A stretch of DNA of 64,000 nucleotides from an uncultured Candidatus Saccharibacteria bacterium (GCA_964625065.1 CAZUZL010000004.1:11040-75039); one strand, 5' to 3'; shown: positions 35,577-60,976, numbered from the stretch's first letter. The notes: generated by a model not told the origin, from the sequence alone. Numbers and translations are program-made.

Positions 35577-38500
35577 TTAGGCTTCTACTCCACAAGAATT
35601 ATTTATCAACCCTCTAGTAAGTGGGCCAACCAAACCGTCTTGTTTCGTACCCAGGAATTTCTGCATTCTTTTGATGGCACCATTGGTTATTGGTCCAAGT
35701 ATTCCGTCTTCTTTACCTGATGCAAAGCCTAGTCTGTTCATGTGTGCTTGAAGTATTTTAACTTCACTTACAATAGTTTTTGCAAATGAATTGTATTTAC
35801 CATTTCTAGCACCAGCCTTAAGGTTTTGAGTTAGTAGCTGTGTAGCTGAACACTGACCCTTAACGCCTAGTGTATTGTTTGTATTTGTGTTTGTATTATT
35901 TACCACCGCGTATCTACACATTGAAGGCGAACTGATACCGAAAGGTTGGTAGTTTGTGGCTTTTATGTCTTTACAACCAAAAGGCACAGAACTAGAAGTT
36001 GTGGTAGTTGTGGTAGTTGTGGTAGTTGTGGTAGTTGTGGTAGGGGCTTCTGAAACTGATAGAACTATATAGTCGGTATTTAACGAATGGTGTAATTGCC
36101 CTGGAACTATATCAGTACGTAAACCTGTAAAATTAATTGCACGGGTGTTGTATGTAGATTGGTACAGATTATGTTCTGCGTCTGTTGGGTAACTTTCAAC
36201 ATCAGTATGGTATGGGTACTGTGTCATAGCACTAAATGGTAGCGGACCTATTTCGTCACCGAGTGCGTATATGTATGCCTTGTGGTAGTCATTTGTGTAG
36301 TAGATGAAGTCGCGTTCAGTTCCTGGTGCTTGTGCCGGTACTGCGTATTTAAATGCAAGTTCGTCACCTTGAGTCATTATTACAAACTTATCATCATTTG
36401 ATTGAAGTAGTTCTGTAACATCTCCATATTTTGTAGCATTACCTGTTGTTTTATTTGAAATAAATGCATCTGTAACATCACCATATACTGGTTCGGTTAG
36501 AATCATATTTGGATCGTTTGGGTTTGTACGAACCTTACTAGATATTCCACGGAAATGTAAATCTGCATAGTATGGGTTCTCAGATGTAACAGTAATAGCA
36601 GAATCTGGGTTTGTATCTACAGCAAGGTAATCTATATCCCACATACGTTTTGTATTTGTCATTATTAGACGAATAGTATTGTCCTTAATTGTTAAGCCTG
36701 AAAGATCGATAACTTTTGTTTCAACGCCATAAGAATTAAATCTTAAGCGTGACGGGTATGGGGCACCTTCTCTTTGAGTTACAAACACATTGTATTCACT
36801 TGGTACGTCCACAAATTCGCCTGCTTCATTTTTGTATTGAAGTGTATCTGATCCAGATCCACCGGAGAAAGGACCTTCCTTACCTCTTTCGATTAATAGT
36901 TTGAGGTTGGCTGGTGTAGTTATGCCATTACTTAGTTTTATATCAATATACGCTGGAGTTACATTTAGTTTCGAATGGTAATACACCCCATCGTTTTGTG
37001 ATAGTAAACTTGTAACATCCTGCCCATCTTGGTCTATTACTGATACAGGTGCTGGGGCATTTTTCGCTACTGTATGTATCTGTCCGTTTTCACGGTAGTC
37101 TGGGAATACATTTACTGATGCATCGTGGTCGATGATTTTCAGTGAAGTTGAATCAAAGTAGTTTATTTCATTTAATTCAGTTGTGTTTTTAATATCGTAA
37201 AAAGTTTCATTACCTACTGTTCTAGGTACAAGGTTGCCTGACTGAATTTTGGCGTAGCCTTCTGGGTTCGGGTAGTTGTTGTTTGTATTTGGGTCTTTGT
37301 AGAATGGATTCGCTGCCCATGTAGCCCTATCTAGACCGATAGAAAGTGTAGATGAACTTGATGCATCTGTTACGAACACATATTTCTCTCCGTCCCAGAC
37401 GAATATATATGGGCAAGACGATGCATATGGGCCACCGACTTCACTTGTGGCTACATTTGAAGATGCGTCAGTAGAACGAACAATGTAATAAAGTGTGGGT
37501 GTGCCATAAGTAACTGATATAGAATGCGAAGTAACCATTGCATCATCATGAACATAAAAAACTAAATTATTATTGTATTCATGCAATGTCGTATATGTGT
37601 TTGTGTCGAAGTTATATTCAAAGACGGAACCAGCACCACTTACACCACCCTGATTCGCTGTTCCATAAAAATTACCGTTTCTTTCAATCAAAGACCCTCT
37701 TGGATTCGATCCGATAGAATAATCAAAATCATATTGATCTGTAATAGCGTTTGTAACTGGGTCCCAAGCAAATAAAATTCCAGCACCGTTTACCCCACCA
37801 AATATTGAAGTACCATAAAGAATACCACTTATATTAATAAGTGAACCTGAGGGGGCTTCGCCGTCTGTACTATTAAAGTCATAATGCTTTGTTATAGTGT
37901 TGGTAACTGGGTCCCAAGCAAATAATACCCCAAAACCATTGGCCCCACCGTTTAATGTGGTACCGTATAGAACTCCGCTTATATTAATTAAAGAACCTTG
38001 TGGGTATGCACCGTTTGAACCATCAAAATCAAACTGTTTTGTAATTGTATTTGTAACTGGGTCCCAAGCAAATAATGTACCCATGCCACTAACCCCTCCA
38101 TATGTTGTAGTGCCATAAAGAATTCCACCAATATTCAGTAAAGAACCCTGTGGACCTGAACCGTCTGTGGTATTAAAATCATATTGTTTTGTTATAGTGT
38201 TTGTAACTGGGTCCCAAGCAAATAATGTTCCAGCATTATTTGCACCACCACTACCTGTGGTACCGTAAAAAATTCCACTAACATTAATTAATGAACCGTA
38301 CGGGTGTACACCGTCTGTTGTGTTAAAGTTATACTGTTTTGTAATTGTATTTGTAACTGGGTCCCAAGCAAACAAAGTACCTACACTATTTGTCCCACCG
38401 CTATACGTTGTTCCGTAGAATATCCCACTTACATTTACTAATGACCCTTTTGGGTTTGCCCCATTAGTACTATTAAAACTAAATCTATTTGTATATATAG

Positions 38501-40841
38501 ACGTATCAGGGTTATACTCAAAAATAGTTCCCACATCAGAAGGATTACTTTCATTTTCTGTAGTCATACCATAAAACGATCCATTGTATTCTATAAGTGA
38601 CCCGTATGGAGAAGTCCCAAATGCTTTTTCATTATATTGGTCCCAATTAGAATACGCATTTGAAGAATACATTATTTCTGAATTTGCTGGTACGTTTGTG
38701 TCCCAGGTAAGTGTGTGACTAATATTACTGAAAACTAAATTCGAAATCTCAATAAGTGGAACATAATTGTCTGCCTTAATCCATACCCAGGTATTACCAT
38801 CAACATCCATATATTTAGTACCGGTTTTGTCACCAGTTAATGTACAGTCCGTAGAACAGTGTTGTGTAGTAACTTGTTCCCATGCCGATGTAGTGAAATT
38901 GTAAAAAGATATTGTAACCATTTTGTCTGCAGGCACATCACCGTGGCCGGTCCAGACAACACTAAACTTTGGGTTTGTAATGCCACCTGAATCTAGCTTG
39001 ATTTTAAACACTTGCGAATCATAGCCACCGTCAGTTACAGATAGTGCTGTAGTCCAGTAGTCAGAATCAGTACTATATATACTTGCAAGGTTATCAGCAG
39101 TACCTAGTGTACCCGGAGACCCAGGGGTTACAGCTGTATCTGCACTTTCGTATAGTATGTATGGGGTAATACTTGAAGCAACTGCAGTACCTGGACTTAA
39201 ACCAATACTAGCAACAGGGGTAACTTCAAACTTGATTGTTTTATTTACATCATCTGCTGTTAAAATATATGTTATATTTGTAGCACCAGCTATAGCAACA
39301 TTGTTTCTGTACCATTGAAAAGTTGAAACTCCTTCTGGATCATTTTCTGTATCGCTGTATGTGTACTGCCCTGTAAGAGTGGCCCCTAATTCTAAATTGC
39401 CGGAAATAGATACACTTGTGGCAACAGGTATACTATCTGTAGTAGTAACTCCACTACTTTGTAAAAGTACTCCCGGTGTAACCCCCGTATTTGCAACTGG
39501 TTGAACACCGAACTTGATTGTTGTATGAGCATCGTCTGTCGTTAATACATATGTATTTGAATTTGCACCAGATATAGCCACATCATCACGGTACCAAGAA
39601 TACACAGAGGCACCTTCTAGGTCATTATCCACATCTACATATGTATAGTTTCCAGTTAAGGTATCTCCGATGTTTGCAGTGCCGGTTATTGACACACTTG
39701 TGGCAGTCGGCGCAAAGTTTGTTGGATCCCATTCATATATTACACCATGTGATGATGTTCCACCTGCGCCTGTAGTTCCATAAAATTTACTATTGCTTTC
39801 AATTAGTGAAACAGCGGGACTATATACGCCACTATCAGCATAAAAATTAAATTTATTTACAAATATACTGGTAACAGGATCAAATTCAAAAATTATGCCA
39901 TTATTATCTAAACCACCTTGGATTGTTACACCGTACAATTTACTATTACTTATTATCATTGACCCGGATGGGAATTTTCCGTCAGTGCTATCAAAATCAT
40001 GTACATCAGTATATGTATTTGTATTTGGATCATATTCATAAATCACACCAAAACCATTTGCACCATCATATGCTAACCCATAAAATTTACCATTCAACAA
40101 TGTTAATGAACCTATTGGGGTAGACCCACTGATTGGTGTAAAGTCATACTTTTTTGTAGTAATATGAGTAATTGGATTAAATTCAAAAAGGGTTCCACTT
40201 CCTCCACTTAGAGGTGCAACACCATAAAGTTTACCATTACTTACAGCCAATAAACTTGATGGCAATCTTCCACCAGCAACATTATTATAACTTGTGTATG
40301 TATTCGTGTTGGGATCGAATGCATAAATTACTCCTATGTTTGATGTACCACCTTGGGTAGTTAATCCGTAAAATATACCATTATACTCAATCAGTGGACC
40401 ACGTGGGGTATTTCCATTTACACCAATATCAAAATCATACAAATCAGTATATGTACTTGTGTTTGGATCAAATTTAAATATAACACCATACCCATTTGCA
40501 CCACCTTGCTGAGTTGTACCATAAAAAAATCCGTTACTTTCAAGTAGTGGTCCGTTAGGCCTGTCTCCATTTACACCATCGAGGTCATAAATATCAGTAT
40601 ATGTATTTGTATTATTGTCATATTCAAATATTGCACCATAACCATTCGCACCACCTGAAATTGTTGCTCCATAAAACTTTCCATTACTTATTATTAATGG
40701 GCCGTTCATAGAATATCCATTACTGACATTAAAATCATACTTCTTAACAACACCCGCCTCAGCACTCTGTGCCCCTACCGCAAACGAGACCACTATGAAC
40801 GCAACCAATATTAATTTTCGGAAATTTAGTAATTTATACAT
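35577..40841 (-). CDS. Giant secreted surface protein (1754 aa). It contains a signal peptide, two blocks of roughly 45-50-aa beta-propeller-type tandem repeats, two Ig-like repeats, a 550-aa domain of unknown function, a poly-Thr linker and a C-terminal peptidoglycan-binding domain.
   Basis: Signal peptide MYKLLNFRKLILVAFIVVSFAVGAQSA. Repeats of the form ...LYGTTxxGGxxGxGT[LV]F[AE][WY]DPxTNT... occur about 8 times at the N terminus and 7 times centrally. The central block corresponds to exact 150-bp DNA periodicity. A T16 linker is present. The C terminus, ...ILQAHMNRLGFASGKEDGILGPITNGAIKRMQKFLGTKQDGLVGPLT, matches the PG_binding_1 pattern. Confidence 0.7.
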   Translation of the reverse strand: MYKLLNFRKLILVAFIVVSFAVGAQSAEAGVVKKYDFNVSNGYSMNGPLIISNGKFYGATISGGANGYGAIFEYDNNTNTYTDIYDLDGVNGDRPNGPLLESNGFFYGTTQQGGANGYGVIFKFDPNTSTYTDLYDFDIGVNGNTPRGPLIEYNGIFYGLTTQGGTSNIGVIYAFDPNTNTYTSYNNVAGGRLPSSLLAVSNGKLYGVAPLSGGSGTLFEFNPITHITTKKYDFTPISGSTPIGSLTLLNGKFYGLAYDGANGFGVIYEYDPNTNTYTDVHDFDSTDGKFPSGSMIISNSKLYGVTIQGGLDNNGIIFEFDPVTSIFVNKFNFYADSGVYSPAVSLIESNSKFYGTTGAGGTSSHGVIYEWDPTNFAPTATSVSITGTANIGDTLTGNYTYVDVDNDLEGASVYSWYRDDVAISGANSNTYVLTTDDAHTTIKFGVQPVANTGVTPGVLLQSSGVTTTDSIPVATSVSISGNLELGATLTGQYTYSDTENDPEGVSTFQWYRNNVAIAGATNITYILTADDVNKTIKFEVTPVASIGLSPGTAVASSITPYILYESADTAVTPGSPGTLGTADNLASIYSTDSDYWTTALSVTDGGYDSQVFKIKLDSGGITNPKFSVVWTGHGDVPADKMVTISFYNFTTSAWEQVTTQHCSTDCTLTGDKTGTKYMDVDGNTWVWIKADNYVPLIEISNLVFSNISHTLTWDTNVPANSEIMYSSNAYSNWDQYNEKAFGTSPYGSLIEYNGSFYGMTTENESNPSDVGTIFEYNPDTSIYTNRFSFNSTNGANPKGSLVNVSGIFYGTTYSGGTNSVGTLFAWDPVTNTITKQYNFNTTDGVHPYGSLINVSGIFYGTTGSGGANNAGTLFAWDPVTNTITKQYDFNTTDGSGPQGSLLNIGGILYGTTTYGGVSGMGTLFAWDPVTNTITKQFDFDGSNGAYPQGSLINISGVLYGTTLNGGANGFGVLFAWDPVTNTITKHYDFNSTDGEAPSGSLINISGILYGTSIFGGVNGAGILFAWDPVTNAITDQYDFDYSIGSNPRGSLIERNGNFYGTANQGGVSGAGSVFEYNFDTNTYTTLHEYNNNLVFYVHDDAMVTSHSISVTYGTPTLYYIVRSTDASSNVATSEVGGPYASSCPYIFVWDGEKYVFVTDASSSSTLSIGLDRATWAANPFYKDPNTNNNYPNPEGYAKIQSGNLVPRTVGNETFYDIKNTTELNEINYFDSTSLKIIDHDASVNVFPDYRENGQIHTVAKNAPAPVSVIDQDGQDVTSLLSQNDGVYYHSKLNVTPAYIDIKLSNGITTPANLKLLIERGKEGPFSGGSGSDTLQYKNEAGEFVDVPSEYNVFVTQREGAPYPSRLRFNSYGVETKVIDLSGLTIKDNTIRLIMTNTKRMWDIDYLAVDTNPDSAITVTSENPYYADLHFRGISSKVRTNPNDPNMILTEPVYGDVTDAFISNKTTGNATKYGDVTELLQSNDDKFVIMTQGDELAFKYAVPAQAPGTERDFIYYTNDYHKAYIYALGDEIGPLPFSAMTQYPYHTDVESYPTDAEHNLYQSTYNTRAINFTGLRTDIVPGQLHHSLNTDYIVLSVSEAPTTTTTTTTTTTTTTTSSSVPFGCKDIKATNYQPFGISSPSMCRYAVVNNTNTNTNNTLGVKGQCSATQLLTQNLKAGARNGKYNSFAKTIVSEVKILQAHMNRLGFASGKEDGILGPITNGAIKRMQKFLGTKQDGLVGPLTRGLINNSCGVEA
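35995..36043. repeat. 9-bp tandem repeat (gtggtagtt)n encoding a poly-Thr linker
   Basis: Five and a half copies, encoding 16 consecutive Thr on the minus strand. Confidence 0.7.
37600..38500. repeat. 150-bp tandem coding repeats (6-7 copies) inside the giant gene
   Basis: gtaactgggtcccaagcaaataa recurs at 37754, 37904, 38054, 38204 and 38354, spaced exactly 150 bp apart. Confidence 0.7.
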
Positions 40842-40940: not shown

Positions 40941-42503
40941 CTAATTATTTTTATTAGTCTTCTTAACTATTTTAACACTATTTTTTGTATTGGTTTTTTG
41001 GGTTTTCGTATTTTTATTTTGGTATACAACTTGGTGGCTAATTAACGGTGAATGTACACCAGTAGTAGATACATATGACAAATACACTTTATAAGTGCCG
41101 TACTTTTCAGGAAGTATAAAACTTTCTTTATTGGTAAATTTATTATATGGGTGTATTACTTCGTTTTTAAAGTTAGGGTCTAACGACACTATGTACCCTG
41201 CTGTTGTACTAGAATCTGCATTAAAACTTAAAGTTAGTTTGTTTGTATTAGTTTTTTGGTTACCACTGTCTATTATAAAATCTAGAGGTTTATTGTTGTT
41301 TGACTTCGGAACAACTAGAACACCTGACCAACCACTACCTGGGCGTGATACTGAAAAAGTATTAGAAACACCAGACCCAAAACCAATTTTTGACACACCA
41401 GAGTTGTTATAGTTTGCAACCCACACACTACTGTTGTTTGTATTTATAGCTACACCAGTTGCCGCCAATATGTTTGGACTTGTATAATTAGTAATCTGAC
41501 CAGAAAGTGTAACTTTTGAAACAGCAACAACGTTTGCCACCCACATATCAGTTTCATCAAATGTTATACCGTACCCGGCTGACTCTAACCCTGGGTATGT
41601 AGTCATAACACCAGTTGGAGTAATTTTAGTTACACTATAGCCACCATAGTCAGCTGTCCACATGTTTGTGCCATCAAATGCAATGTCTAGCGGGTACCCA
41701 CCTGTACCTGTATATGTAGTCATAGACCCTGCAGGTGTTATTTTTGTAACACTGTCGTCATTAAAACTTGCTGTCCACATGTTTGTACCGTCAAACGCAA
41801 TAGAAGAAGGGTTAGTACCAGTACCAGTGTAGGTGGTAATAACACCTAGTGGAGTTATTTTTGAAACACTTGCATCAGCGTTTGCAGTCCACATGTTTGT
41901 ACCGTCAAAGGCAATGTCCAGAGGGCCTACAAGCGGACCATAATTTGTCATTGAACCATTAGGTGCAATTTTAGTAACATTGTTTCCGCTTACGTTTGCT
42001 GTCCACATGTTTATACCGTCAAAAGCAATACCACGTGGTCCGTCACCTGTACCTGTATATGTAGTAACTGTGCCATCGTATGCAACCTTGTCTACTTCAT
42101 TTGAAAAGTAGTTTGTTACCCACATGTTTGTGCCGTCAAATGCCAGGTTCCACGCACCGCCACCAACACCACCATAAAACGTAGCTGTTGGTTTTAAACT
42201 AATAGAAACAGTATTGTTGTTCGAAGCAACACCAGTGGTTGGTGTAAACGTAGCTGTATAAACCAGTGGGTCTGCAGTAGATGTTAAGTTTGACAAAGTA
42301 CCACCAGTTACCAAAATATCGTTTAATGTAAAATTTATAGGTCGTTCAGTAAAAGCAAAAGTTACAGTAGTTGTGTTAGTGTTTAACATCGTACCACTTA
42401 TACTTATTGAAACATTTGAAGTCGCTGTTGAAGCAAGCAAAATTGTAGATGTGTTTAAAAACAACATCAAAGCAATAAGTGAACACAAAAAGTATTTATT
42501 CAT
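40941..42503 (-). CDS. Secreted beta-propeller repeat protein (NHL/Vgb-like blades)
   Basis: Signal peptide MNKYFLCSLIALMLFLNTSTILLAS. About seven 39-aa repeats of the form GPxxIAFDGTNMWTAxxxxxSVTKITPxGxxTTYTGTG, with 116-bp DNA periodicity. Confidence 0.6.
   Translation of the reverse strand: MNKYFLCSLIALMLFLNTSTILLASTATSNVSISISGTMLNTNTTTVTFAFTERPINFTLNDILVTGGTLSNLTSTADPLVYTATFTPTTGVASNNNTVSISLKPTATFYGGVGGGAWNLAFDGTNMWVTNYFSNEVDKVAYDGTVTTYTGTGDGPRGIAFDGINMWTANVSGNNVTKIAPNGSMTNYGPLVGPLDIAFDGTNMWTANADASVSKITPLGVITTYTGTGTNPSSIAFDGTNMWTASFNDDSVTKITPAGSMTTYTGTGGYPLDIAFDGTNMWTADYGGYSVTKITPTGVMTTYPGLESAGYGITFDETDMWVANVVAVSKVTLSGQITNYTSPNILAATGVAINTNNSSVWVANYNNSGVSKIGFGSGVSNTFSVSRPGSGWSGVLVVPKSNNNKPLDFIIDSGNQKTNTNKLTLSFNADSSTTAGYIVSLDPNFKNEVIHPYNKFTNKESFILPEKYGTYKVYLSYVSTTGVHSPLISHQVVYQNKNTKTQKTNTKNSVKIVKKTNKNN
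41400..42190. repeat. 116-bp tandem coding repeats
   Basis: tgtccacatgtttgtrccrtcaaa recurs at about 41655, 41771, 41887, 42003 and 42119. Confidence 0.65.
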
Positions 42504-44687: not shown

Positions 44688-46295
44688 TTATTTTACTAGC
44701 AAATTATCTGATTTTATTAAGTCTCTAACTTTCTCTATTTCAGATCTAACATATACATCCCCTTTATAATCACCTAGTGCCTTTAAAATGGTATTGTACG
44801 CAACTGATGTTCCAGCACCAAGTTTACGTAACTTAGCAGGAAGTTTTTCTTGAGTAATTTGTATACCTCTAGTAGCACACAATAGTTCTATTGCTAGTAA
44901 TGTTTCTAGGTTTTTAATTACTTTACGTAGATGTACTGCACCCACACTCCCCATTGACACAACGTCTTCTTGGTTTGCAGCAGTTGAAACAGACATTACA
45001 GATGCCGGTGTTGAAAGTACTCTGTTTTCAGCAACTCTAGACGCACCTGCATATTGAGCTATCATGTATCCAGCGTCAGCTTTGGAAGTGTCGAAAGCAA
45101 GATCCCCTGGTAAACCATAACTTAGATGTGAATCAAGTAACGAGAAAGATCTTTTATCACTAGCTATACTTAGTGATGTTAATGTCATTTTTACATAATC
45201 TATAGGTGAAGCCAGTAATTGACCGTGGAAATTACCGCCACTGGCAAAAGAAACGGTTTCAGTATTTTTACCATTAATTTTTACAGTTACGGTTTTTTCA
45301 AAATCAAAAACAGGATTATCTGTTACAGAATTAATTTCAGTGGTCAACGTCTGTTTTAACTTTTCGATTGCTTCAAAAGCTGCACCATGAATCTGAGGCG
45401 CGCATCTAAAACTATATCTATCTTGAACACGTTCTTTGTTACGTTCATTTGAAAATTGAATTTCTTGAGATTCTTTTGTTGTTCTCATTGAACCTTTTAT
45501 CAAAGATCGTATTTGTTTTGCAATTGCAATTTGGCCAATATGTCTATCAGATTGCTCGTTTATAAGTTCTTGGAATGCTCGTTTTTCTCCACGTACAGCT
45601 TCTAAAGAAAGCGCTGTACTTAATGAAGCAATATTAAGCAATTTTTCTGCTTCTAGAACAGAAATTGAAGCAATTGATGCAATAAAATTTGAACCATTTG
45701 TTAGACCCATGGCTTCTTTAGCACCTAGTCTAATTGGTTTTATGCCACTTTGCTTTAACGCTTCTGGGGAACTTAATAATTTACCTTTATAATAAGCTTT
45801 ACCGTCTGGTAAACCAATAATAACAGCACCTATCATTGCTAGTGGCACCAAATCTCCACTTGCACCCACAGAACCTTCTTCTAATATCCAAGGTGTAACA
45901 TTTTTATTTAAAAGTTCTATTAGAATATTACACATATCCCAACTTACTCCGGAATGTCCTTTTAGAAATGAGTTAAGTCTAATAACCATAATTGCACGAG
46001 CTTCTGGAATAGATAATGGTTCACCTGTGCCACAATTATGAGTTTTTATATATTTTACTTGATATTCTTCGATGAATTCATAAGGTACAGCAACATCTTT
46101 TAGATCACCATGCAGACGATTTGTTCCGTAAATAGGTATTTCTGGAAAATTTTTAATCTGAGATTCTAGTTTTTTTCGATGATTTTTAATTTTATTCTGA
46201 AGCACTGGACTTACAGACACACCTGATTCTCCGATTGCAATAGAATGAAGCTCTTTTAATGTTAGACTTTTACCTGTTAAATTTATATTACTCAT
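44688..46295 (-). CDS. MIO-dependent aromatic amino-acid ammonia-lyase family protein (histidine ammonia-lyase-like; divergent N-terminal substrate loop)
   Basis: The Ala-Ser-Gly triad that forms the MIO cofactor sits in GSVGASGDLVPLAM. Length is 535 aa, and HAL/PAL-like length and motif order hold throughout. The substrate-loop region reads IYGTNRLHGDL rather than the HAL-typical YGINTGFG. Confidence 0.7.
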   Translation of the reverse strand: MSNINLTGKSLTLKELHSIAIGESGVSVSPVLQNKIKNHRKKLESQIKNFPEIPIYGTNRLHGDLKDVAVPYEFIEEYQVKYIKTHNCGTGEPLSIPEARAIMVIRLNSFLKGHSGVSWDMCNILIELLNKNVTPWILEEGSVGASGDLVPLAMIGAVIIGLPDGKAYYKGKLLSSPEALKQSGIKPIRLGAKEAMGLTNGSNFIASIASISVLEAEKLLNIASLSTALSLEAVRGEKRAFQELINEQSDRHIGQIAIAKQIRSLIKGSMRTTKESQEIQFSNERNKERVQDRYSFRCAPQIHGAAFEAIEKLKQTLTTEINSVTDNPVFDFEKTVTVKINGKNTETVSFASGGNFHGQLLASPIDYVKMTLTSLSIASDKRSFSLLDSHLSYGLPGDLAFDTSKADAGYMIAQYAGASRVAENRVLSTPASVMSVSTAANQEDVVSMGSVGAVHLRKVIKNLETLLAIELLCATRGIQITQEKLPAKLRKLGAGTSVAYNTILKALGDYKGDVYVRSEIEKVRDLIKSDNLLVK

Positions 46296-53704: not shown

Positions 53705-54664
53705 TTAGTTAGGACAGTCTGCGTTATATTCTGGTGCGTATACTATAGTTGCATATGCAGTCAAGTTTTGACTGTCTGTAATTCTGGCTGTAACTGTATA
53801 TTTAGGTACAGAATTTATGTTGTTTTTATAACCTTGTACATTTAGTGGGTCTGAAATATAGTATGTCCCTAACGACGATGTTGTACTGGTATTAAAACTA
53901 CTTACAACTGTCCATTCTATTTTTATTGTACCTATACCACCTGTCCATGCCACAGAAGGTTCGTGTTTTTTAGTACAGTACAATGAACTACCAGGTCCGT
54001 TAACGGGTGTTGTGTGGTCTGTTATGGTTACGTTGTTTGGTCCGTCTGTTTTGTAACAGTAACCCAAGTTTTGTGCAGTACTGTTTGTTGTTGGGTTTAG
54101 TTTACCACAGCGTATCTGAACATCGGTACCAGTTGCGTCCTGTCTGTAGTATGTCATAAGTGACGGACCAAATTCGCCACTATTTGGGCAAACGCGACTG
54201 GCAGGGTTTAATGTTTGTGCTGCACGTATAGTACAGTAGTCGCCCATACCTATGTTTGTATTACCAGTTAGCTGTAGGTTGTATCTTATGTCTGGGTAGT
54301 TTGTTGCAGTTAATGTTGGTTCACCTATATCTAGGAAGCCTTTGAACCACGAATACCCAGATACTACACGAAAGTCGCCAGTGTTTGCAGATGTGCCTAC
54401 GTTTACAGAACCACCAGATTCTACATTGGTTCTAGATATTAGGTAGCCTTTATAGTTTGTACTATTTAAAGTATAACCTATACTACCGAACTGACTTGTT
54501 TTAACTTGGTTGTCGTCGCCACGGTTTACTATAACAGATGGGTTACAACTGGTATCACCAGCTGTACATGTCGGGTCGCTCCATGCGGCACTAACCAACA
54601 TAGCAGTACCGGCTACACATATAGCCAGCACCAACGGCGCAATAACTTGTTTAAAGTTTTTCAT
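53705..54664 (-). CDS. Secreted Cys-containing protein, member 1 of the MKNFKQ paralogous family
   Basis: Signal peptide MKNFKQVIAPLVLAICVAGTAMLVSAAW. Conserved blocks shared with the genes at 56302-57231 and 57250-57828 are WxxP[ST]C...CN, SWFKGFLDIGEP, YNLQLTGNTNIGMGDYCTIR and CPNSGEF. An ACTACGGGGTATAAT promoter lies 6 nt before the ATG. Confidence 0.6.
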   Translation of the reverse strand: MKNFKQVIAPLVLAICVAGTAMLVSAAWSDPTCTAGDTSCNPSVIVNRGDDNQVKTSQFGSIGYTLNSTNYKGYLISRTNVESGGSVNVGTSANTGDFRVVSGYSWFKGFLDIGEPTLTATNYPDIRYNLQLTGNTNIGMGDYCTIRAAQTLNPASRVCPNSGEFGPSLMTYYRQDATGTDVQIRCGKLNPTTNSTAQNLGYCYKTDGPNNVTITDHTTPVNGPGSSLYCTKKHEPSVAWTGGIGTIKIEWTVVSSFNTSTTSSLGTYYISDPLNVQGYKNNINSVPKYTVTARITDSQNLTAYATIVYAPEYNADCPN

Positions 54665-54745
54665 ATGTACATTATACCCCGTAGTTAAGCTTTTACCAAT
54701 AGTAATATGTGAAAAATTATATTTTTGGAATCTTAATACGGATCA

Positions 54746-54790
54746 GGCCGGGTAAATAAGGACATTACCCGGCACGATTCTGCAGAATCG
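54746..54790. repeat. Palindromic dispersed repeat, copy C (intergenic)
   Basis: ggccgggtaa-ataaggaca-ttacccggc hairpin plus acgattctgcagaatcg. It matches 22 of 23 positions of the core of copy B in tsaD. Confidence 0.6.
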
Positions 54791-54835
54791 CAAATAAAAA
54801 ACGCCCTTCAGTTAAACTGAAGGGTCGTTAATTGT

Positions 54836-56158
54836 TTACCGAACGATGATTTTCTTAATTGTATAAGTTTTTTCGTTACGGATTTGTAGAACATAAGCAC
54901 CAGCCGGGAAATTAAATTCCACAACGTCACCATCTAATTTTCTTTCCATCAGCACAGACCCTTTAAGGTCAGTTACTGTAAGCACCGATCCGACGTAGTC
55001 GTTAGGCACTTGGAGAGAATATGTAGAAGGCATAGGGTTAGGAATATTCAAAGCCGAAGCATTTTTATATCCGTTAATCCCGTTGGCTTTCGCTTGCAAT
55101 CTTCTTCCTTGAGTTCCGTAGAAAACAAGGTAATCTTTGGTAGCTGCCATTTTACCGACATCAAACAATGATGCATCGGCAATGGCGTTCAGACCAATTA
55201 ATTCGTCGTTTACAGTGTTGTATTCGACAAAGTAGTTAGCTTGGATCTCCTCGTTTGTTCCGCATTTTTTGATAATGTCAGAACTTGCTAGATAGCATTT
55301 TCCTTTGAAAAAACATGCATTGGAAACACCAATGAATTTTTCCTCAAAGTTACCGGTTACTTCATTGTATTTATACAATGTATAATCATAGTAACCAGAA
55401 AAGCAATTTAACAATAACGTATTACCGTCAGTAGCCAAGTCATTGAAAAACAAAGACTTATTAACGACTGGGTATGACAAAACTTTTGTAATTAAGTCAT
55501 AGCACAACACAGATTTGTCGATTCTACCTTCTTTGGTAGAATTTACACCGAAAAACAATTTGTTTTTAAATGGTACAATTTTTTCAATTGACCATTCTTG
55601 TTCTGGTGGAAACAAAGGTGTGATGCTGCCCGTAACCATGTCGTAGATTAGTGCAAACTTTGGAGTATTGGTTTTGCCTTCGATAGAATCGAAGTTGCCA
55701 TACACACAGACTTTAGATTGATCTGCCCATAGGTTGGCCATACGTAGGTCTGCACCTTCTCTAGGAAATGAAGTGTGAGCTTTAAAAATAAAGTATGCAC
55801 TTCCAAATTCGTCGATAAGGTAAAGACTCGAACCATCTCTAGTCAGGTGTTTACGCTGATATGAACCAGCGATAGCACTTGGGTCGTTGAGGTTAAGAAC
55901 TGTTTTAGTTACCACACCTGTTTGGGCGTTTCTACTAATTAATGTTTTTTGACCAACAGCCCAAATAACATTGGTTGTTGTGTCAAAATACTCAGTTCCG
56001 CTAATTTCATTAGTTAACCCACCAAATGTTACAATTTCGTAACCTTTATTTTGGGATAGATTTGTGGCTTGCGCTTTGGTTGTCATGTTTCCTACAAACA
56101 TGACCAACATTGTTGTTAGAATGAACTGTAGGAGTCCATTTTTGTTTGTAAGATTCAT
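54836..56158 (-). CDS. Secreted protein with a T9SS-type (Por) C-terminal sorting domain
   Basis: Signal peptide MNLTNKNGLLQFILTTMLVMFVGNMTTKAQA. The C terminus, NIPNPMPSTYSLQVPNDYVGSVLTVTDLKGSVLMERKLDGDVVEFNFPAGAYVLQIRNEKTYTIKKIIVR, follows the Por_Secre_tail pattern: YPNP...D..G.....G.Y......K.I. Confidence 0.6.
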   Translation of the reverse strand: MNLTNKNGLLQFILTTMLVMFVGNMTTKAQATNLSQNKGYEIVTFGGLTNEISGTEYFDTTTNVIWAVGQKTLISRNAQTGVVTKTVLNLNDPSAIAGSYQRKHLTRDGSSLYLIDEFGSAYFIFKAHTSFPREGADLRMANLWADQSKVCVYGNFDSIEGKTNTPKFALIYDMVTGSITPLFPPEQEWSIEKIVPFKNKLFFGVNSTKEGRIDKSVLCYDLITKVLSYPVVNKSLFFNDLATDGNTLLLNCFSGYYDYTLYKYNEVTGNFEEKFIGVSNACFFKGKCYLASSDIIKKCGTNEEIQANYFVEYNTVNDELIGLNAIADASLFDVGKMAATKDYLVFYGTQGRRLQAKANGINGYKNASALNIPNPMPSTYSLQVPNDYVGSVLTVTDLKGSVLMERKLDGDVVEFNFPAGAYVLQIRNEKTYTIKKIIVR

Positions 56159-56301
56159 GAATAAATTGTGAAGAACGTTAGTGTCCTATCTGTAGGTATT
56201 ATACCATTTCTATAAAAAACAAGCAATACACCTGTGGATAACAGGTGTATTGGTATAATGTATTATTTTATAAGGCTTTAAAAGCTAAATATTAATTTAT
56301 T

Positions 56302-57231
56302 TTACTTTGTCCAGCCACTACTGATCTGTTCCCCACTGCCTGAAATTGTAAGGTTTGCTCTATACATAATGTCGCCCCCGTTTAGGTTTGTACAGTCGTA
56401 TTGTCCAGAACCTGCAGTTGTAGTACCAAAAGTTGTACTAGTTGTACCCGAACCAGTTGTTTTAGTTTCGTAATTTGTAATGGTACCAGCTGTTGTGTTA
56501 GGTGGGTATGTAGTGTTTGCCCATTTACTGATGCTGATAGAAACATTACTTGGTGCATTGTATACAGTTACCGTGTACTGACAGTAACCAACACCACTAC
56601 CAGCAGCGTCGTATGTACGTGCCATACCTACGTTTAGTGACAAGATGTTTGTAAGGCAAGACCCCAAGTTTGCTGGGTTGTCAGACGGGTTTATAAATGT
56701 GCACGCTACCTGTGGCACATTACCATTAGCCCAGTTTGGGTTTATCTGTGATACAAAAGACCCCGGTGGGCAACCCTGTCCACCGTTTAGGTCCTGGTTT
56801 GTTAATGTACAAAAGTCGCCTTTACCCAGATTTGTAGTTGAACCTGGTTTTAATGTCAAAGTATATACAGGTGTTGGTGGTGTTGTTGATACTATTGCAG
56901 AAACTGGGATATTTTGGCCAATATAAACCTTGCCTTTAGTCCAAGCTTGACCAAGTAAAACTCGCAAGCCAGTTTTTTTAGGCTCAATACTTGTATCTGT
57001 ACCAACATAGAAACCATCTCTGGCTTCTATGTCACCCGTTGCACCAAAAAATTTTGCTTCCAATGCACCGTTTTTTAGCTGGCCAGTACTACCGGTGTTA
57101 ACTGTATTTTCTACATTACAACCAGGTGGCGTACAACTGTTCGGTGCCTGTGTTGTGTTTGCTAAAACTACACCACCTATTACAAACATACATACTACTA
57201 GTGCTGGTATTAATTGTTTAAAGTTTTTCAT
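56302..57231 (-). CDS. Secreted Cys-containing protein, member 2 of the MKNFKQ family
   Basis: N terminus MKNFKQLIPALVVCMFVIGGVVLA. Shared blocks AWTKGKVYIGQN, YTLTLKPGSTTNLGKGDFCTLT and CPPGSF. Thr/Gly-rich C-terminal region. Confidence 0.6.
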   Translation of the reverse strand: MKNFKQLIPALVVCMFVIGGVVLANTTQAPNSCTPPGCNVENTVNTGSTGQLKNGALEAKFFGATGDIEARDGFYVGTDTSIEPKKTGLRVLLGQAWTKGKVYIGQNIPVSAIVSTTPPTPVYTLTLKPGSTTNLGKGDFCTLTNQDLNGGQGCPPGSFVSQINPNWANGNVPQVACTFINPSDNPANLGSCLTNILSLNVGMARTYDAAGSGVGYCQYTVTVYNAPSNVSISISKWANTTYPPNTTAGTITNYETKTTGSGTTSTTFGTTTAGSGQYDCTNLNGGDIMYRANLTISGSGEQISSGWTK

Positions 57232-57249
57232 ATATAAAATTTAGTATTA

Positions 57250-57828
57250 TTAACAACTACCTATGTTGTGTGGGTTAACAGACGGGCTTGTGGCTGAACA
57301 AGTTACGTATGGGTATATACCTGTAGCTGTTGGGTTTATCTGTATTATAAAATATCCAGCAGGACAAGATTCGGCAGACGTGCCTGTAACACGGGCCTTT
57401 GTCATGGTGCACCAGTTGCCTCGGCCTATATTTGTTGTTGCCCCACTTTTTAAAGTTAGTGTGTCTGTTGGTGTTACTGGGTAATTAATTGGGCTGTCAG
57501 TTATAGAAGCATCGTTACCTATGTAAACTTTATCGTTAAACCAAGCATTACCACTAAGTATACGCAAACTACCTGTTGGGTTTGTAGACACACTGGAACC
57601 AACCATCAACGGACCTCTTGAAAATATGTACCCCATAGACCCCAAGTAAGTTGAAGTTAGTCCGCCTAATTTTAGCTGGTCTTCGTTATCTATGTTTACA
57701 GGTTCGTCGGCATTACAGCCTGTTGCACCAGGTACACAACTTGGTGCAGTCCACGCAGCAAATGCAACACCAGCAAAAACAATTGAAGCTAGTATTATAG
57801 AAGGTATAAGTTGTTTAAAGTTTTTCAT
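57250..57828 (-). CDS. Secreted Cys-containing protein, member 3 of the MKNFKQ family; shorter, ending where the paralogs continue
   Basis: N terminus MKNFKQLIPSIILASIVFAGVAFAAW. Shared blocks NAWFNDKVYIGND, DTLTLKSGATTNIGRGNWCTMT and CPAGYF. It ends at ...NIGSC, whereas member 2 continues LGSCLTN... Confidence 0.5.
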   Translation of the reverse strand: MKNFKQLIPSIILASIVFAGVAFAAWTAPSCVPGATGCNADEPVNIDNEDQLKLGGLTSTYLGSMGYIFSRGPLMVGSSVSTNPTGSLRILSGNAWFNDKVYIGNDASITDSPINYPVTPTDTLTLKSGATTNIGRGNWCTMTKARVTGTSAESCPAGYFIIQINPTATGIYPYVTCSATSPSVNPHNIGSC

Positions 57829-57861: not shown

Positions 57862-58263
57862 TTATTTTTTCTTAGTTTGGTTTGCAGTTTCAGTTGCGCG
57901 TATGTCTACCATAAATTTTTCTGCTTCTGCTACATCAGCTGGGGTTAGTGGTGGTACAGATTTGGTAACTTCGTCCATGCGTTTCAAGGCTTGTTCTGTA
58001 TTAGCGTCCATTACACGCTGTTCTTTGTTTAACCAAAAACCGTTTTTCTGTGCATAAATAAAACCCAAAACTAACAGCACAGTAACAGCAACTACGGTTG
58101 CTATTTTTTTCTTGTCAGATGCACGTTGTTCTATGTTTTTGTTTTTATTTATAGTTTCGTCCAAACGTTGACGCGACAACATGGTGTCGTGCATTTTTTC
58201 TGCTTCTGCACGTTCTTGTTCTTTGATACGTGCAATATGTTGTTGAAGTTCTTCAGGTGGCAT
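57862..58263 (-). CDS. Hypothetical bitopic membrane protein
   Basis: A 133-aa protein with a charged N-terminal domain and one TM helix. Confidence 0.4.
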   Translation of the reverse strand: MPPEELQQHIARIKEQERAEAEKMHDTMLSRQRLDETINKNKNIEQRASDKKKIATVVAVTVLLVLGFIYAQKNGFWLNKEQRVMDANTEQALKRMDEVTKSVPPLTPADVAEAEKFMVDIRATETANQTKKK

Positions 58264-58361
58264 GTGTGTATTATACCTTGAAGTAAAATTTTAAACAACA
58301 CGGCCCAGGTAAATATAGCAAATAAAAATGCACAACGTGTGTGCTTTTTACTATTGTTATA

Positions 58362-58871: not shown

Positions 58872-60602
58872 TTAATTTGTTGTTGTAGGAACAGTATAAT
58901 TAATTCCCTTTTGCATAACGAAGTCAGGATATGTTGTATAAAGTTCCTCTATGGCAGTACGCATAGCGTGTGACGCAGGTATGTATGCAGTACCAGAACC
59001 GTCGTCCATTAACACCACAAAAGCGTATTCGGGTTTTTCATATGGGAAAAACCCTGTAATCCACGAGTTAACGCGACGTTTAGATATATCTGTCTGTGCA
59101 GTACCAGACTTACCAGCCATATGCAGGTATGGAAAGTTCAACGACTCACCAGTACCTGTGGTTATAACCATGCGTAGTGCTTCGTGTACTACTTGGTACT
59201 GTGCATCTGTAAATGGTAGTTGTTCTGTTTTTGTTAGTTCTGGGTTTGTTTCATTTAAACGTATATGCGGTGTTACTAATGTACCCCGACTAGCTATACC
59301 TGCCATTGCACGCACCATTTGCAACGGCGTTACCTGGAAACCGTATTGTCCGATCGATGTGTGGTATGTGTCGCCTACACGCCATGGGTCTTTGGGGAAA
59401 GTTTTTGCTTTCCATTCTACAGACGGCACTACACCAGCTAGTTCGCCGTCCATGTCTATTCCTGTTTTTAAACCTATACCAAAGTCCTTGGCATATTGGT
59501 TTATGCGGTCTATACCTAGACCCTTTTGGTCTTTGTAGCCACCACCTATTTCGTAAAAATATACGTTCGACGAAACTGCTATGGCTTTACGCATGTCTAC
59601 TAAACCGTGCGCGGCGTTGTCCTTGAAGACTGTGTTTTTAGTAGAGTCAAATGGGTTTGGTATTGTAATCTGTCCAGTACTTAAAATTTGTTTTAATGGG
59701 CTTATAATGTTTTCATTTAGTGCAGCTAACGCTAAATATGGTTTAACTATAGACCCAGGTGTGTACCGCCCTGCTATAGCGCGGTTAATAAAAACTTTTC
59801 TTTTGTCAGTAAAATAGTGCGATATTTTTTCGTTGTCAGTAGCTAGTGACATAACGTTCGAACTGTATTCAGGGTAGCTTGTTATAGCCACAACTTCACC
59901 TGTATGTATGTTCATTATTACACCTGCTCCGCCAGTATAACCTGCATCTGTAGCTAGTTTTTCTATGCCGTGGTACAGCGCAGTTTGCACACGGGCATCT
60001 ATAGACAACACCACATCTGTACCATGCACTGGTTCTTCGGTAATGTTTTCAGATAGAACTTTACCAGTTGCATCTGTTTCAAAATATTTTGCACCGTGTG
60101 TGCCCTCTAACTGTGTTGCATAATACGACTCGACACCGCTTTTACCAGTAAACTGTGTTTGCCAGTAGTTGCCCGATGCGTCTTTCTTAGGGTAGCCAAC
60201 ATAGCCCAACAGGTGCGCATAGCCGCCATCGTTTGTGTATATACGTTTCGAAAAAGCCTCACCTTCCTTCAACTTTTCATTCCATGCCAGGTTTACACCG
60301 TTTCTATCTGTTATCAAACCACGGTCGGCAAATATAGGTACTGATTCGAACGAATTTTTCTCACTTCTTGTTGCAAAATAGTCGCCTTTAGAAATCTGCA
60401 AATACCCTAACCTAAAAATACCACCAACACCAAAAACAAATGCAACTATAAAAATAATATTTAGTGCACGGTGTGGTATAGGTTGTTCTATACGGCCTTC
60501 CATTTGCTGTGTGTTGAACTGTGGCAAATTACGCGCGTCCAGCAGTATTTCGTCGGGGGCTATTTCATGGTAGTATTGTTTTTTTGGTTTCCAGAATTTC
60601 AT
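58872..60602 (-). CDS. mrdA: Penicillin-binding protein 2 (class B transpeptidase, MrdA-like)
   Basis: SxxK in GSIVKPY, SSN in AVSSNVYFYE and KSGTAQ. N-terminal TM helix. An mreD-like gene lies upstream. Confidence 0.8.
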   Translation of the reverse strand: MKFWKPKKQYYHEIAPDEILLDARNLPQFNTQQMEGRIEQPIPHRALNIIFIVAFVFGVGGIFRLGYLQISKGDYFATRSEKNSFESVPIFADRGLITDRNGVNLAWNEKLKEGEAFSKRIYTNDGGYAHLLGYVGYPKKDASGNYWQTQFTGKSGVESYYATQLEGTHGAKYFETDATGKVLSENITEEPVHGTDVVLSIDARVQTALYHGIEKLATDAGYTGGAGVIMNIHTGEVVAITSYPEYSSNVMSLATDNEKISHYFTDKRKVFINRAIAGRYTPGSIVKPYLALAALNENIISPLKQILSTGQITIPNPFDSTKNTVFKDNAAHGLVDMRKAIAVSSNVYFYEIGGGYKDQKGLGIDRINQYAKDFGIGLKTGIDMDGELAGVVPSVEWKAKTFPKDPWRVGDTYHTSIGQYGFQVTPLQMVRAMAGIASRGTLVTPHIRLNETNPELTKTEQLPFTDAQYQVVHEALRMVITTGTGESLNFPYLHMAGKSGTAQTDISKRRVNSWITGFFPYEKPEYAFVVLMDDGSGTAYIPASHAMRTAIEELYTTYPDFVMQKGINYTVPTTTN

Positions 60603-60610
60603 ATATATTT

Positions 60611-60886
60611 TTATGTTCTGGTAAATACTTTTCTAAGCAGAAAAACACCGACCACCAGCACAGCCCCTAGTGCATACACATGTTGCACACCGTAGAAATA
60701 TTGCACGGGTATAGCATATATATAGTCTGCAAATATACCAACGGCTATATATTCGTATGGTATGTAACGCGCAAAAAAACCAAATCCAACAAACAGAACA
60801 AACAAAACCCACCATGGCAAAACTACTGCCACCAGCAGTAAAAACGCACCCAGTATTAGCCTTTTATAAAGTTTGTTTTCTAGCAT
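60611..60886 (-). CDS. MreD-like small membrane protein
   Basis: A 91-aa polytopic hydrophobic protein immediately upstream of PBP2, in the order typical of an elongasome cluster. Confidence 0.4.
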   Translation of the reverse strand: MLENKLYKRLILGAFLLLVAVVLPWWVLFVLFVGFGFFARYIPYEYIAVGIFADYIYAIPVQYFYGVQHVYALGAVLVVGVFLLRKVFTRT

Positions 60887-60976
60887 TTATTTTTATGCGT
60901 CTTTCTTATTACCTGATTCTGCGGAATCATGTCGGACCAACGTTCCTTTAAAGGGCCGACCCTAATTTGCAACAGA

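What the first reader, a model, noticed from the sequence alone, without database searches (positions are those of the whole stretch)
53705..57828. Tandem family of three secreted Cys-containing 'MKNFKQ' proteins surrounding a T9SS-CTD protein
Three minus-strand genes at 53705-54664, 56302-57231 and 57250-57828 encode proteins that all start MKNFKQ[LV]I[AP]. They share collinear blocks: W-x-x-P-[ST]-C...C-N, [AS]-W-[TF]-x-[GD]-K-V-Y-I-G, a [YD]-T-L-T-L-K-x-G-[AS]-T-T-N-[IL]-G-[KR]-G-[DN]-[FW]-C-T-[LM]-T block, and C-P-x-G-[SY]-F. They are clear paralogs with conserved cysteines, so likely disulfide-stabilised extracellular domains. I do not recognise the family. The third member ends at ...NIGSC, exactly where member 2 continues, and it is separated from member 2 by only 18 nt. 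It is therefore either a truncated copy or a gene in decay. Expansion of a secreted family in tandem is typical of surface and host-interaction proteins in episymbiotic bacteria.
Basis: partly seen in the sequence, partly recalled or inferred. Interest (0 to 1): 0.72.

Follow-up and report, generated by a model that had tools for sequence, protein, structure and literature searches.

The report
Conserved secreted-protein cassette in CPR bacterium
Three related secreted, disulfide-bonded proteins, a strain-variable partner protein and a small membrane protein form a conserved, unannotated gene cassette in an ultrasmall Nomurabacteria-like bacterium, probably building a cell-surface complex.

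Summary
Three minus-strand ORFs (319, 309 and 192 aa) are clear paralogs (BLASTP E = 5e-47 to 6e-15) with six invariant cysteines, and they match nothing in Pfam, NCBIfam or PHROGs. Three points of the interpretation need correcting.

1. The 192-aa member is not decaying. The same short form recurs in other genomes, and its dN/dS is 0.17.
2. This is not a recent expansion. [quoted passage not shown] is a conserved cassette. It is collinear in three related contigs and recurs in six distant loci, where it sits next to pilB.
3. The conserved N-terminus belongs to a much larger undescribed superfamily. It consists of a Sec signal peptide, a signal-peptidase site and a motif of the form W-x-x-P…(C)…PP…(C)N…P-I-N…Q-x-K-x-G. 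At least 354 cluster representatives carry it, fused to fibre, adhesin or Ig-type C-termini.

The Por_Secre_tail gene, not the Cys family, is the variable part. Strains whose family genes are 91–99.7% identical carry two body types only ~51% identical, recombined with two tail types.

Best reading: a Sec-exported, disulfide-stabilised surface complex with a diversifying specificity subunit. The function is inferred, not shown.

The parts
57862..58263 (-). 133-aa single-pass membrane protein: charged N-terminus, one TM helix and a ~55-aa outside tail with a PP-x-T-P-A-D-V…F-M motif. It is the first gene of the cassette.
   Evidence: Conserved in the same position in L001, L002 and L003. 96% identical to L003, dN/dS 0.08. 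Small bitopic proteins of ~100 aa sit inside the distant cassettes. hhalign gives 89.9% probability, E = 1.7e-6, but the match is mostly the TM segment.
57250..57828 (-). Member 3 (S class, 192 aa). Signal peptide aa 1-24 (…AFA|AW), N-module with the C31-C38 pair, a variable linker, and a four-Cys core domain aa ~124-192 (nt 57253-57459). The protein ends at the last Cys.
   Evidence: Short orthologs are P0003-5, the 198-aa protein of L002 and the L003 copy. dN/dS 0.17.
56302..57231 (-). Member 2 (B class, 309 aa). Same core, with the four-Cys domain at aa 125-192, plus a ~115-aa C-terminal domain of type 1 that carries its own Cys pair.
   Evidence: Orthologs are P0010, P0013 and P0016. dN/dS 0.14.
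56224..56252 (-). Terminator-like hairpin (12-bp stem plus T-run) after member 2. It closes a probable 133aa-m3-m2 transcription unit.
   Evidence: This is a consensus scan only.
54836..56158 (-). Partner protein (440 aa): signal peptide, a ~340-aa body with six [Y/F/R][D/N]-x-x-[T/N]-[G/K/N/D] motif sites (the last four ~45-50 aa apart, suggesting a beta-propeller), and a C-terminal Por_Secre_tail/T9SS-type sorting-domain-like Ig domain (aa 373-440).
   Evidence: TIGR04183 25.1 bits, cutoff 23. PF18962 20 bits, cutoff 27. PDB CTD chain 8glk_D, E = 0.0018. Repeats. Orthologs in L001, L002 and L003 at 38-55% identity. Homologous to the partners in the distant loci: hhalign 93.9%, E = 1.5e-7 over 259 columns.
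54690..56170 (.). Hypervariable island: the partner gene plus its downstream spacer. Nucleotide identity to L003 is 35-77% here, against mostly 82-99% in the flanks.
   Evidence: There are two body types (~51% identical) and two tail types (58-62% identical), found in the combinations I-a, II-a and II-b.
54804..54824 (-). Terminator-like hairpin after the partner gene.
54671..54699 (-). Promoter-like site (TTGGTA-17-TATAAT) whose -10 box ends 6 nt before the ATG of member 1. The transcript may be leaderless.
   Evidence: Consensus match only.
53705..54664 (-). Member 1 (A class, 319 aa). Signal peptide, N-module, linker, four-Cys core domain aa ~130-203 (nt 54056-54277), then an Ig/FN3/PKD-like beta-sandwich aa ~205-315 that ends in a Cys.

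Best explanation
The region encodes a conserved five-gene cell-envelope cassette of a Nomurabacteria-like CPR bacterium.

Shown:
- Three paralogous proteins share a Sec-type signal peptide, a signal-peptidase I site and a conserved mature N-terminal module.
- That module carries a Cys pair that is present or absent as a pair.
- Next come a strain-variable linker, an almost invariant ~65-aa four-Cys domain, and optional C-terminal domains. The one in member 1 is Ig-like.
- The paralogs always come as three. They occur with one secreted protein that ends in a T9SS-type CTD-like domain and with a small single-pass membrane protein.
- The partner gene is dimorphic and mosaic among otherwise near-identical strains.

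Inferred:
- The proteins are exported by Sec, cleaved after A-x-A, and oxidised outside the cytoplasm. CPR are reported to be enriched in MdbA-like oxidoreductase and VKOR.
- The N-module acts as a shared surface-retention or assembly tag. It would be analogous to the common anchoring modules of Gram-positive surface proteins, possibly docking on the small membrane protein.
- The three paralogs and the partner form a surface complex. In that complex the diversifying partner would be the exposed specificity or antigenic subunit, used for attachment to a host cell or under pressure from phage or host.
- Because CPR are thought to lack an outer membrane, the CTD-like domain is taken to be a co-opted Ig-like module and not a T9SS export signal.
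For: - Paralogy and invariant cysteines.
- Family size: 15 clusters at 90% identity in 5.8 billion sequences. The exhaustive search found 10 representatives at E <= 1e-30, but 354 at E <= 1e-3. Most of those match only profile positions 1-60/80, the N-module.
- C-terminal domains in 143 superfamily representatives: Peptidase_S74 in 6, Ig domains in 3, H_lectin in 2, plus YadA_head, Gp53-like_C and Dockerin.
- Signal-peptidase site in 156 of 158; prepilin motif in 0 of 176.
- Cys pair: 61 both, 111 neither, 4 single.
- Synteny. L002 and L003 are collinear with the window across the whole cassette. L001 is collinear until its contig ends after the partner gene. Six distant loci (L006, L007, L009, L011, L013, L014) each have three paralogs, a small TM protein and a Por_Secre_tail protein.
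- Partner proteins are homologous by hhalign: 93.9%, E = 1.5e-7.
- Paralog classes X, Y and Z are each monophyletic with 100% bootstrap.
- Purifying selection on m1-m3: dN/dS 0.07-0.17.
- The hypervariable island coincides with the partner gene and its downstream spacer. Its alleles are dimorphic and mosaic, while m1-m3 from the same strains stay 91-99.7% identical.
- Variable sites of m2 and m3 cluster in the low-confidence linker, not in the four-Cys domain.
- CPR envelope and disulfide machinery: PMC6744442.
Against: - No experiment or interaction prediction links the five proteins. Co-assembly is inferred from conserved co-occurrence only.
- Linker lengths are similar in the window's three paralogs, where the core domain starts at aa 124-130. 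They differ in the distant loci, ~142-151 in X against ~177-189 in Z. That argues against a strictly registered heterotrimeric fibre.
- The window-group paralogs do not pair 1:1 with X, Y and Z in the tree. The triplet may therefore have arisen twice or been homogenised.
- The N-module and four-Cys domain match no solved fold, so a retention function is only an analogy.
- The AF2 model is of low confidence for residues 26-140.
- Signal peptides were judged by a crude rule, not by SignalP.
- Absence of a T9SS could be checked only in 64 kb of the genome.
Confidence: 0.45

Rival explanations
1. Independent secreted binding proteins. The three paralogs and the Por_Secre_tail protein are each stand-alone secreted lectin- or adhesin-like proteins. 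They stay clustered through shared regulation or ancestry and do not form a complex.
For: Hairpins suggest three separate transcription units. C-terminal decorations differ and are gained or lost: the first position is 192-336 aa. Linker lengths differ among X, Y and Z. N-module genes elsewhere are mostly solitary or in arrays of 2-8 with no partner gene.
Against: All nine complete loci, from two deeply diverged lineages, hold exactly three paralogs plus one partner plus one small TM protein. Each paralog class is kept under purifying selection.
Confidence: 0.25
2. Type IV pilus accessory set. The three small proteins and the propeller-like partner would act like minor pilins plus a PilY1-type tip adhesin, or otherwise dock onto the pilus.
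For: In six distant loci the cassette is transcribed divergently from pilB-pilC-pilins. In L015, L016 and L017 an N-module gene lies immediately upstream of pilB. T4P mediate host attachment in cultivated CPR (PMC12206443, abstract).
Against: None of 176 N-module proteins has a prepilin G/F…E5 motif, and 156 of 158 have a signal-peptidase I site instead. In the window, L001, L002 and L003 the cassette lies between greA and lysS, and no pilus genes turned up among the ten large window ORFs scanned. Only 2 of 26 long N-module loci contain pilB. The pilus operons already encode their own N_methyl pilins.
Confidence: 0.12
3. Cell-wall or division-associated structural proteins. The cassette would serve envelope biogenesis, given its position among PBP2/FtsI, MraZ, RsmH and MurJ genes.
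For: Gene neighbourhood in the window and in L001-L003.
Against: In the distant lineage the same cassette lies between pilB and argS, so the link to division genes is not conserved. A dimorphic, recombining partner gene is not expected for housekeeping envelope machinery.
Confidence: 0.08
4. Phage-derived tail-fibre or receptor-binding genes, i.e. a prophage remnant.
For: Some superfamily members end in Peptidase_S74, Gp53-like_C or YadA-head domains. The best Foldseek hits in the viral library are tail-fibre proteins, but at E >= 5e-3.
Against: No PHROG match apart from one weak hit of unknown function (E = 0.0055) for m1, and none for two canonical N-module proteins tested. No N-module on 2.9 million viral contigs. 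All members carry Sec signal peptides. The flanks are housekeeping genes with conserved synteny.
Confidence: 0.03

Closest known systems
Gram-positive surface proteins with a shared non-covalent anchoring module (for example N-terminal SLH domains)
   Same: A Sec signal peptide is followed by a short conserved module shared by many otherwise unrelated secreted proteins, with variable functional domains after it. The organisms are monoderm-type.
   Different: There is no sequence or fold similarity to SLH or any other Pfam anchoring domain. The module here is only ~35 residues, Pro-rich, has an optional disulfide, and starts within a residue or two of the mature N-terminus. Its ligand is unknown. 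The comparison rests on general knowledge, not on a test.
T9SS cargo proteins of Bacteroidota (C-terminal sorting domain, TIGR04183/PF18962)
   Same: The partner protein has an N-terminal signal peptide and a C-terminal ~70-aa domain that passes the TIGR04183 cutoff. The domain also matches a solved CTD chain, 8glk_D.
   Different: The host is a CPR bacterium. That group is reported to lack PilQ and a Gram-negative envelope (PMC6744442). The Pfam score is below threshold for the window copy. No T9SS genes were seen, but only 64 kb could be checked. The tail recombines independently of the body.
Type IV pilus minor pilins plus the PilY1 tip adhesin
   Same: Several small paralogous proteins with an N-terminal hydrophobic helix are encoded with one larger, probably propeller-like protein. 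In some lineages they sit next to pilB and pilC.
   Different: The class III signal peptide, G(-1) and E(+5) are all missing, and cleavage is of the signal-peptidase I type. The linkage to pilus genes is not universal.
Phage and bacterial trimeric fibres with a conserved N-terminal attachment region and variable C-terminal binding domains (Peptidase_S74-type fibres)
   Same: The architecture runs from a constant N-terminus to variable distal domains. Six of 143 superfamily representatives carry the Peptidase_S74 intramolecular chaperone. The linker is of low confidence in monomer models, as is common for intertwined fibres.
   Different: The three window proteins have no S74 domain and no PHROG or PDB match. 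They carry signal peptides and are chromosomal housekeeping-locus genes. Trimerisation is untested.

Membership tests
T9SS C-terminal sorting domain (Por_Secre_tail; TIGR04183 / PF18962), for the 440-aa partner | Sequence match above the curated cutoff | tested here: met
   TIGR04183 scores 25.1 bits against a cutoff of 23. The result is marginal: PF18962 scores 20 bits, below its cutoff of 27, for the window copy. Partners in L006-L014 carry unmarked PF18962 hits.
T9SS C-terminal sorting domain (Por_Secre_tail; TIGR04183 / PF18962), for the 440-aa partner | Domain at the extreme C-terminus of a protein with an N-terminal Sec signal peptide | tested here: met
   The match covers aa 373-440 of 440. 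The N-terminus MNLTNKNGLLQFILTTMLVMFVGNMTTKAQA|T looks like a signal peptide by inspection. No dedicated predictor was available.
T9SS C-terminal sorting domain (Por_Secre_tail; TIGR04183 / PF18962), for the 440-aa partner | T9SS translocon (SprA, PorV, PorU…) and an outer membrane in the same organism | not testable with these tools
   Only a 64-kb window is available. None was seen among the ORFs scanned. The literature reports no Gram-negative envelope in CPR (PMC6744442).
Type IV pilins / pseudopilins | Class III signal peptide: short leader ending in G, then F/M-x-x-x-E(+5) and a hydrophobic helix; N_methyl motif | tested here: not met
   None of 176 N-module proteins has such a motif. 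156 of 158 have an A-x-A-type site after the hydrophobic stretch. There is no PF07963 hit.
   No Pfam or NCBIfam family at E <= 1. PHROGs gives one weak hit of unknown function (E = 0.0055) for m1 only. PDB profile searches reach E >= 0.29 for the family and E >= 0.031 for the N-module, the latter to ribosomal protein L24.
Ig / FN3 / PKD-like beta-sandwich (C-terminal domain of member 1) | Fold similarity to solved Ig-like domains | tested here: met
Phage tail fibre / Peptidase_S74 fibres | S74 intramolecular chaperone or another tail-fibre domain; occurrence on phage genomes | tested here: not met
   Absent from m1-m3. Present in 6 of 143 superfamily representatives. No N-module on viral contigs.
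Left-handed beta-helix (hexapeptide repeat), for the linker region | Significant match to hexapeptide-repeat proteins | tested here: inconclusive
   Only E = 0.29-1.7 hits to hexapeptide transferase, serine acetyltransferase and gamma-carbonic anhydrase over profile positions 84-143.

The most novel reading that the evidence does not exclude
The N-terminal module would be an undescribed, CPR-wide surface-display tag. After signal-peptide cleavage, the conserved mature N-terminus would dock hundreds of different fibres and adhesins onto the envelope, perhaps onto the small single-pass membrane proteins encoded beside them or onto the pilus machinery. The cassette in this window would be a dedicated host-recognition complex. 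Three fixed paralogous subunits would present a dimorphic, recombining propeller subunit whose T9SS-type CTD has been repurposed in a bacterium without an outer membrane.
Probability: 0.22. Interest if true: 0.8.

Novelty: new variant of a known kind. Interest (0 to 1): 0.55.

Why it matters
How ultrasmall CPR bacteria outside the Saccharibacteria recognise and hold on to host cells is largely unknown, and most of their secreted proteins are unannotated. This analysis produces three concrete handles.

1. A sequence-defined N-terminal module marks a large set of CPR secreted fibre- and adhesin-like proteins. No curated library models it.
2. A small, conserved cassette has fixed composition and can be tested as a complex.
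3. A partner gene with two deeply diverged, recombining allele classes sits inside otherwise near-identical strains. That pattern is typical of exposed specificity or antigenic determinants.

The analysis also documents a T9SS-type CTD in a lineage where the T9SS is not expected, which raises the question of what that domain does there. All functional statements remain inferences.

Tried and rejected
- Gene decay of member 3: rejected.
- Pilin identity: rejected.
- Phage origin: rejected.
- A general link between the N-module superfamily and the pilus operon. Only 2 of 26 long metagenome loci contain pilB, although in both the N-module gene is immediately upstream of it. The link holds for a subset only.
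- A general link between the N-module and Por_Secre_tail proteins: 0 of 26 long loci. The partner is specific to the four-Cys branch.
- A DGR-type mechanism for the partner's variability was considered and set aside. Divergence spans the whole gene with saturated dS, not a short A-biased variable repeat.
- My first regex count of the Cys pair was wrong because of a lazy match. I redid it by HMM alignment.
- The second word-indexed database search hit its candidate cap and returned only 26 proteins.
- The sources give no names for the distant clusters, so the taxonomy of L006-L015 is unconfirmed.
- The literature searches found no description of the module or of Por_Secre_tail in CPR.

Full report
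**1. Observation**

- All three begin with MKNFKQ, encoded by the same 18 nucleotides.
- Formal comparison confirms paralogy: m2/m3 44% identity, E = 5e-47; m1/m3 E = 1e-24; m1/m2 E = 6e-15.
- An HMM of the three finds no further copy in the six-frame translation of the window.
- The gene between members 2 and 1 (54836-56158, 440 aa) matches the T9SS sorting domain at residues 373-440. It passes NCBIfam TIGR04183 (25.1 bits, cutoff 23) but not Pfam PF18962 (20 bits, cutoff 27).
- The three paralogs hit nothing in Pfam or NCBIfam at E <= 1.

**2. The narrow family and the short member**

A profile search of 5.8 billion sequences found only 15 clusters at 90% identity. The two that carry a source name are both 'Minisyncoccia bacterium' hypothetical proteins. 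The nearest genome is a Candidatus Nomurabacteria MAG, 91% identical to member 3 (L003).

Aligning 16 sequences gives six invariant cysteines and four architectural classes:

| Class | Size | Members | C-terminal part |
|---|---|---|---|
| S | 192-197 aa | member 3, P0003-5 | none |
| B | ~300-313 aa | member 2, P0010, P0013 | domain type 1 |
| A | 319-369 aa | member 1, P0008, P0009, P0012, P0015 | domain type 2 |
| C | 317-331 aa | P0006, P0007, P0011, P0014 | domain type 2 |

The short form ends at the last conserved Cys, or one residue after it, in every genome that has it. In a distant lineage the first paralog is likewise short and ends on that Cys (L009 198 aa, L014 201 aa). Against the L003 ortholog, member 3 has dN/dS 0.17, member 2 0.14 and member 1 0.066. 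The 'truncated or decaying' reading is therefore rejected. Member 3 is the bare core of the family.

**3. A much larger superfamily defined by the N-terminus**

The exhaustive HMMER search of 1.84 billion representatives gave only 10 hits at E <= 1e-30 but 354 at E <= 1e-3. Most of those match only profile positions 1-60/80.

- These proteins share a consensus of the form MKKIKQSIKAIILGLILVAGVSFASAAWTAPTCTPPGCNVDAPINVGSSDQTKTGGL.
- In an HMM alignment of 176 such proteins, P31, P35, N39, P43, Q51 and G55 are conserved at 84-94%.
- The two cysteines occur together in 61 proteins, are both absent in 111, and occur singly in 4. This is strong evidence for a disulfide (C31-C38 in member 3).
- 156 of 158 proteins have a (-3,-1)-rule signal-peptidase site 0-4 residues before the conserved aromatic residue. 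The preceding uncharged run has a median length of 18 residues. None of 176 has a prepilin motif. So these are Sec substrates, and the conserved motif begins within a residue or two of the mature N-terminus.
- What follows the module is very diverse. Among 143 representatives Pfam finds Peptidase_S74 (6), Ig domains (3), H_lectin (2) and Gly_rich_2 (2), plus YadA_head, Gp53-like_C, Shufflon_N and Dockerin.
- NCBIfam has no model for the module, a PDB sequence profile search gives nothing credible, and two canonical module-bearing proteins match no PHROG.
- The module was not found on 2.9 million viral contigs.
- In 80 further metagenome loci, N-module genes are solitary or in tandem arrays of up to eight (L040).

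**4. Structure**

With 49 sequences, AlphaFold2 gave a model of member 1 with mean pLDDT 72:

| Region (aa) | Model | pLDDT |
|---|---|---|
| 4-25 | N-terminal helix | - |
| 26-140 | low-confidence stretch | 48-77 |
| ~140-205 | compact four-Cys alpha/beta domain | 80-92 |
| ~205-315 | beta-sandwich | 62-91 |

**5. The cassette**

The locus is collinear with L003 and L002: PBP2, GreA, a 133-aa membrane protein, S, B, the Por_Secre_tail protein, A, then LysS. L001 has the same start (PBP2, GreA, a 150-aa protein), followed by two C-class members and a Por_Secre_tail protein before the contig ends.

Distant homologs at 23-28% identity lie in six loci: L006, L007, L009, L011, L013 and L014. All six share one layout:
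- a type IV pilus operon (PilB, in five of the six also PilC and pilins) on one strand;
- divergently, a family member X (198-336 aa), a ~100-aa single-pass membrane protein, a second member Y (~232-262 aa), a Por_Secre_tail protein of 443-485 aa on the opposite strand, and a third member Z (~357-371 aa);
- then ArgS.

My HMM confirms that X, Y and Z are all family members. Partner proteins of the two lineages are homologous beyond the tail (hhalign 93.9%, E = 1.5e-7 over 259 columns). The small membrane proteins match more weakly, mainly over the TM segment (89.9%).

In a neighbour-joining tree, X, Y and Z are each monophyletic (100% bootstrap). The window-group paralogs cluster together (100%). 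The three-paralog state is thus maintained in both lineages without 1:1 orthology. This means either independent triplication or concerted evolution.

**6. The variable component**

- Nucleotide identity between the window and L003 is mostly 82-99% over 9 kb, with short dips at an intergenic indel (~60825-60970) and the PBP2 3' end (~58875-59025). It falls to 35-77% across 56170-54690, which is the partner gene and its downstream spacer.
- The partner is 54.7% identical at the protein level with dS 1.6. Its neighbours are 89-100% identical with dS 0.09-0.79.
- Orthologs of members 1, 2 and 3 from several strains fall into single 90% clusters (96.8-99.7%, 91.3-95.1% and 91.1-96.9% identity). 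The co-located partners fall into three clusters.
- By region there are two body types, ~51% identical between types and >= 89% within. There are two tail types, 58-62% identical between types. They occur in the combinations I-a, II-a and II-b, so the gene is a recombining mosaic.
- Within members 2 and 3, most of the few variable sites lie in the linker (m2 positions 56-61, 78-87, 106-116; m3 positions 69-75, 112-119). The four-Cys domain and C-terminal domains are nearly invariant.

**7. Interpretation**

Shown:
- secreted, Cys-paired paralogs of an unannotated family;
- membership of a large N-module superfamily;
- a conserved cassette of fixed composition;
- a dimorphic, recombining partner.

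Inferred:
- Extracytoplasmic disulfide formation. CPR are reported to be enriched in MdbA-like oxidoreductase and VKOR, and to lack PilQ and a Gram-negative envelope (PMC6744442).
- A surface-retention or assembly role for the N-module.
- Co-assembly of the five products.
- A host- or phage-facing specificity role for the partner.
- Co-option of the CTD-like domain.

A registered heterotrimeric fibre is attractive but weakly supported. Linker lengths match in the window group but not among X, Y and Z.

The pilus link is real only for a subset. There are nine loci in all with a family or N-module gene next to pilB. Among unselected long N-module loci, only 2 of 26 contain pilB, although in both the N-module gene is immediately upstream. 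The window's own cassette lies between greA and lysS, and no pilus genes turned up among the ten large ORFs scanned.

**8. Transcription signals (consensus scans only)**

Hairpins with T-runs follow member 2 (56252-56224) and the partner gene (54824-54804). A TTGGTA-17-TATAAT site ends 6 nt before the ATG of member 1. This suggests three units: 133aa-m3-m2, the partner gene, and m1.

**9. Verdict**

It is not a member of any curated family. It is best described as a new variant of the familiar theme of modular secreted surface proteins, carried in a conserved CPR-specific cassette. Function remains inferred.

Noticed in passing
window 54690-56170 (compared with L003 5188-6580): The Por_Secre_tail gene is a sharply bounded hypervariable island. 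Nucleotide identity is 35-77% there against mostly 82-99% in the flanks. Two body types (~51% aa identity) are recombined with two tail types among strains whose neighbouring genes are 91-100% identical.
   Followed up: yes
window 54665-54700 and 58264-58290: A TATAAT box ends only 6 nt before the ATG of member 1 and of the 133-aa membrane-protein gene, with no obvious Shine-Dalgarno sequence. These may be leaderless transcripts.
   Followed up: no
L040 1675-10324; L039 7611-12387; L016 9185-11476: Other metagenome contigs carry tandem arrays of 3-8 genes that all start with the same N-terminal module. In L016 the array ends 73 nt upstream of pilB.
   Followed up: partly
L015 7651-7986: A 111-aa single-pass membrane protein with three T-[D/E]-x-E-V-D-x-I-L-K-x-L repeats precedes an 820-aa N-module protein and pilB. 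A similar short motif appears in the ectodomains of the small membrane proteins of the cassettes (window: PPLTPADVAEAEKFM).
   Followed up: partly
L015 12364-12627; L001 5793-6041; L002 1837-2085: Small GIY-YIG genes (82-87 aa) recur in these CPR loci. One is inserted between pilB and pilC.
   Followed up: no
window 35577-40841 and 40941-42503: Two further large, probably surface-exposed proteins. One is 1754 aa with IG_AIR9 repeats and a C-terminal PG_binding_1 domain. The other is 520 aa with Big_12 and a Vgb_lyase-type propeller.
   Followed up: no
window 44688-46295: A 535-aa aromatic amino-acid ammonia-lyase (PF00221, E = 1e-143), next to HisRS, in a genome type usually described as metabolically minimal.
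   Followed up: no
window 60825-60970 and 58875-59025: Two other short stretches of low identity to L003: an intergenic indel between the 123-aa and 91-aa membrane-protein genes, and the 3' end of the PBP2 gene.
   Followed up: no
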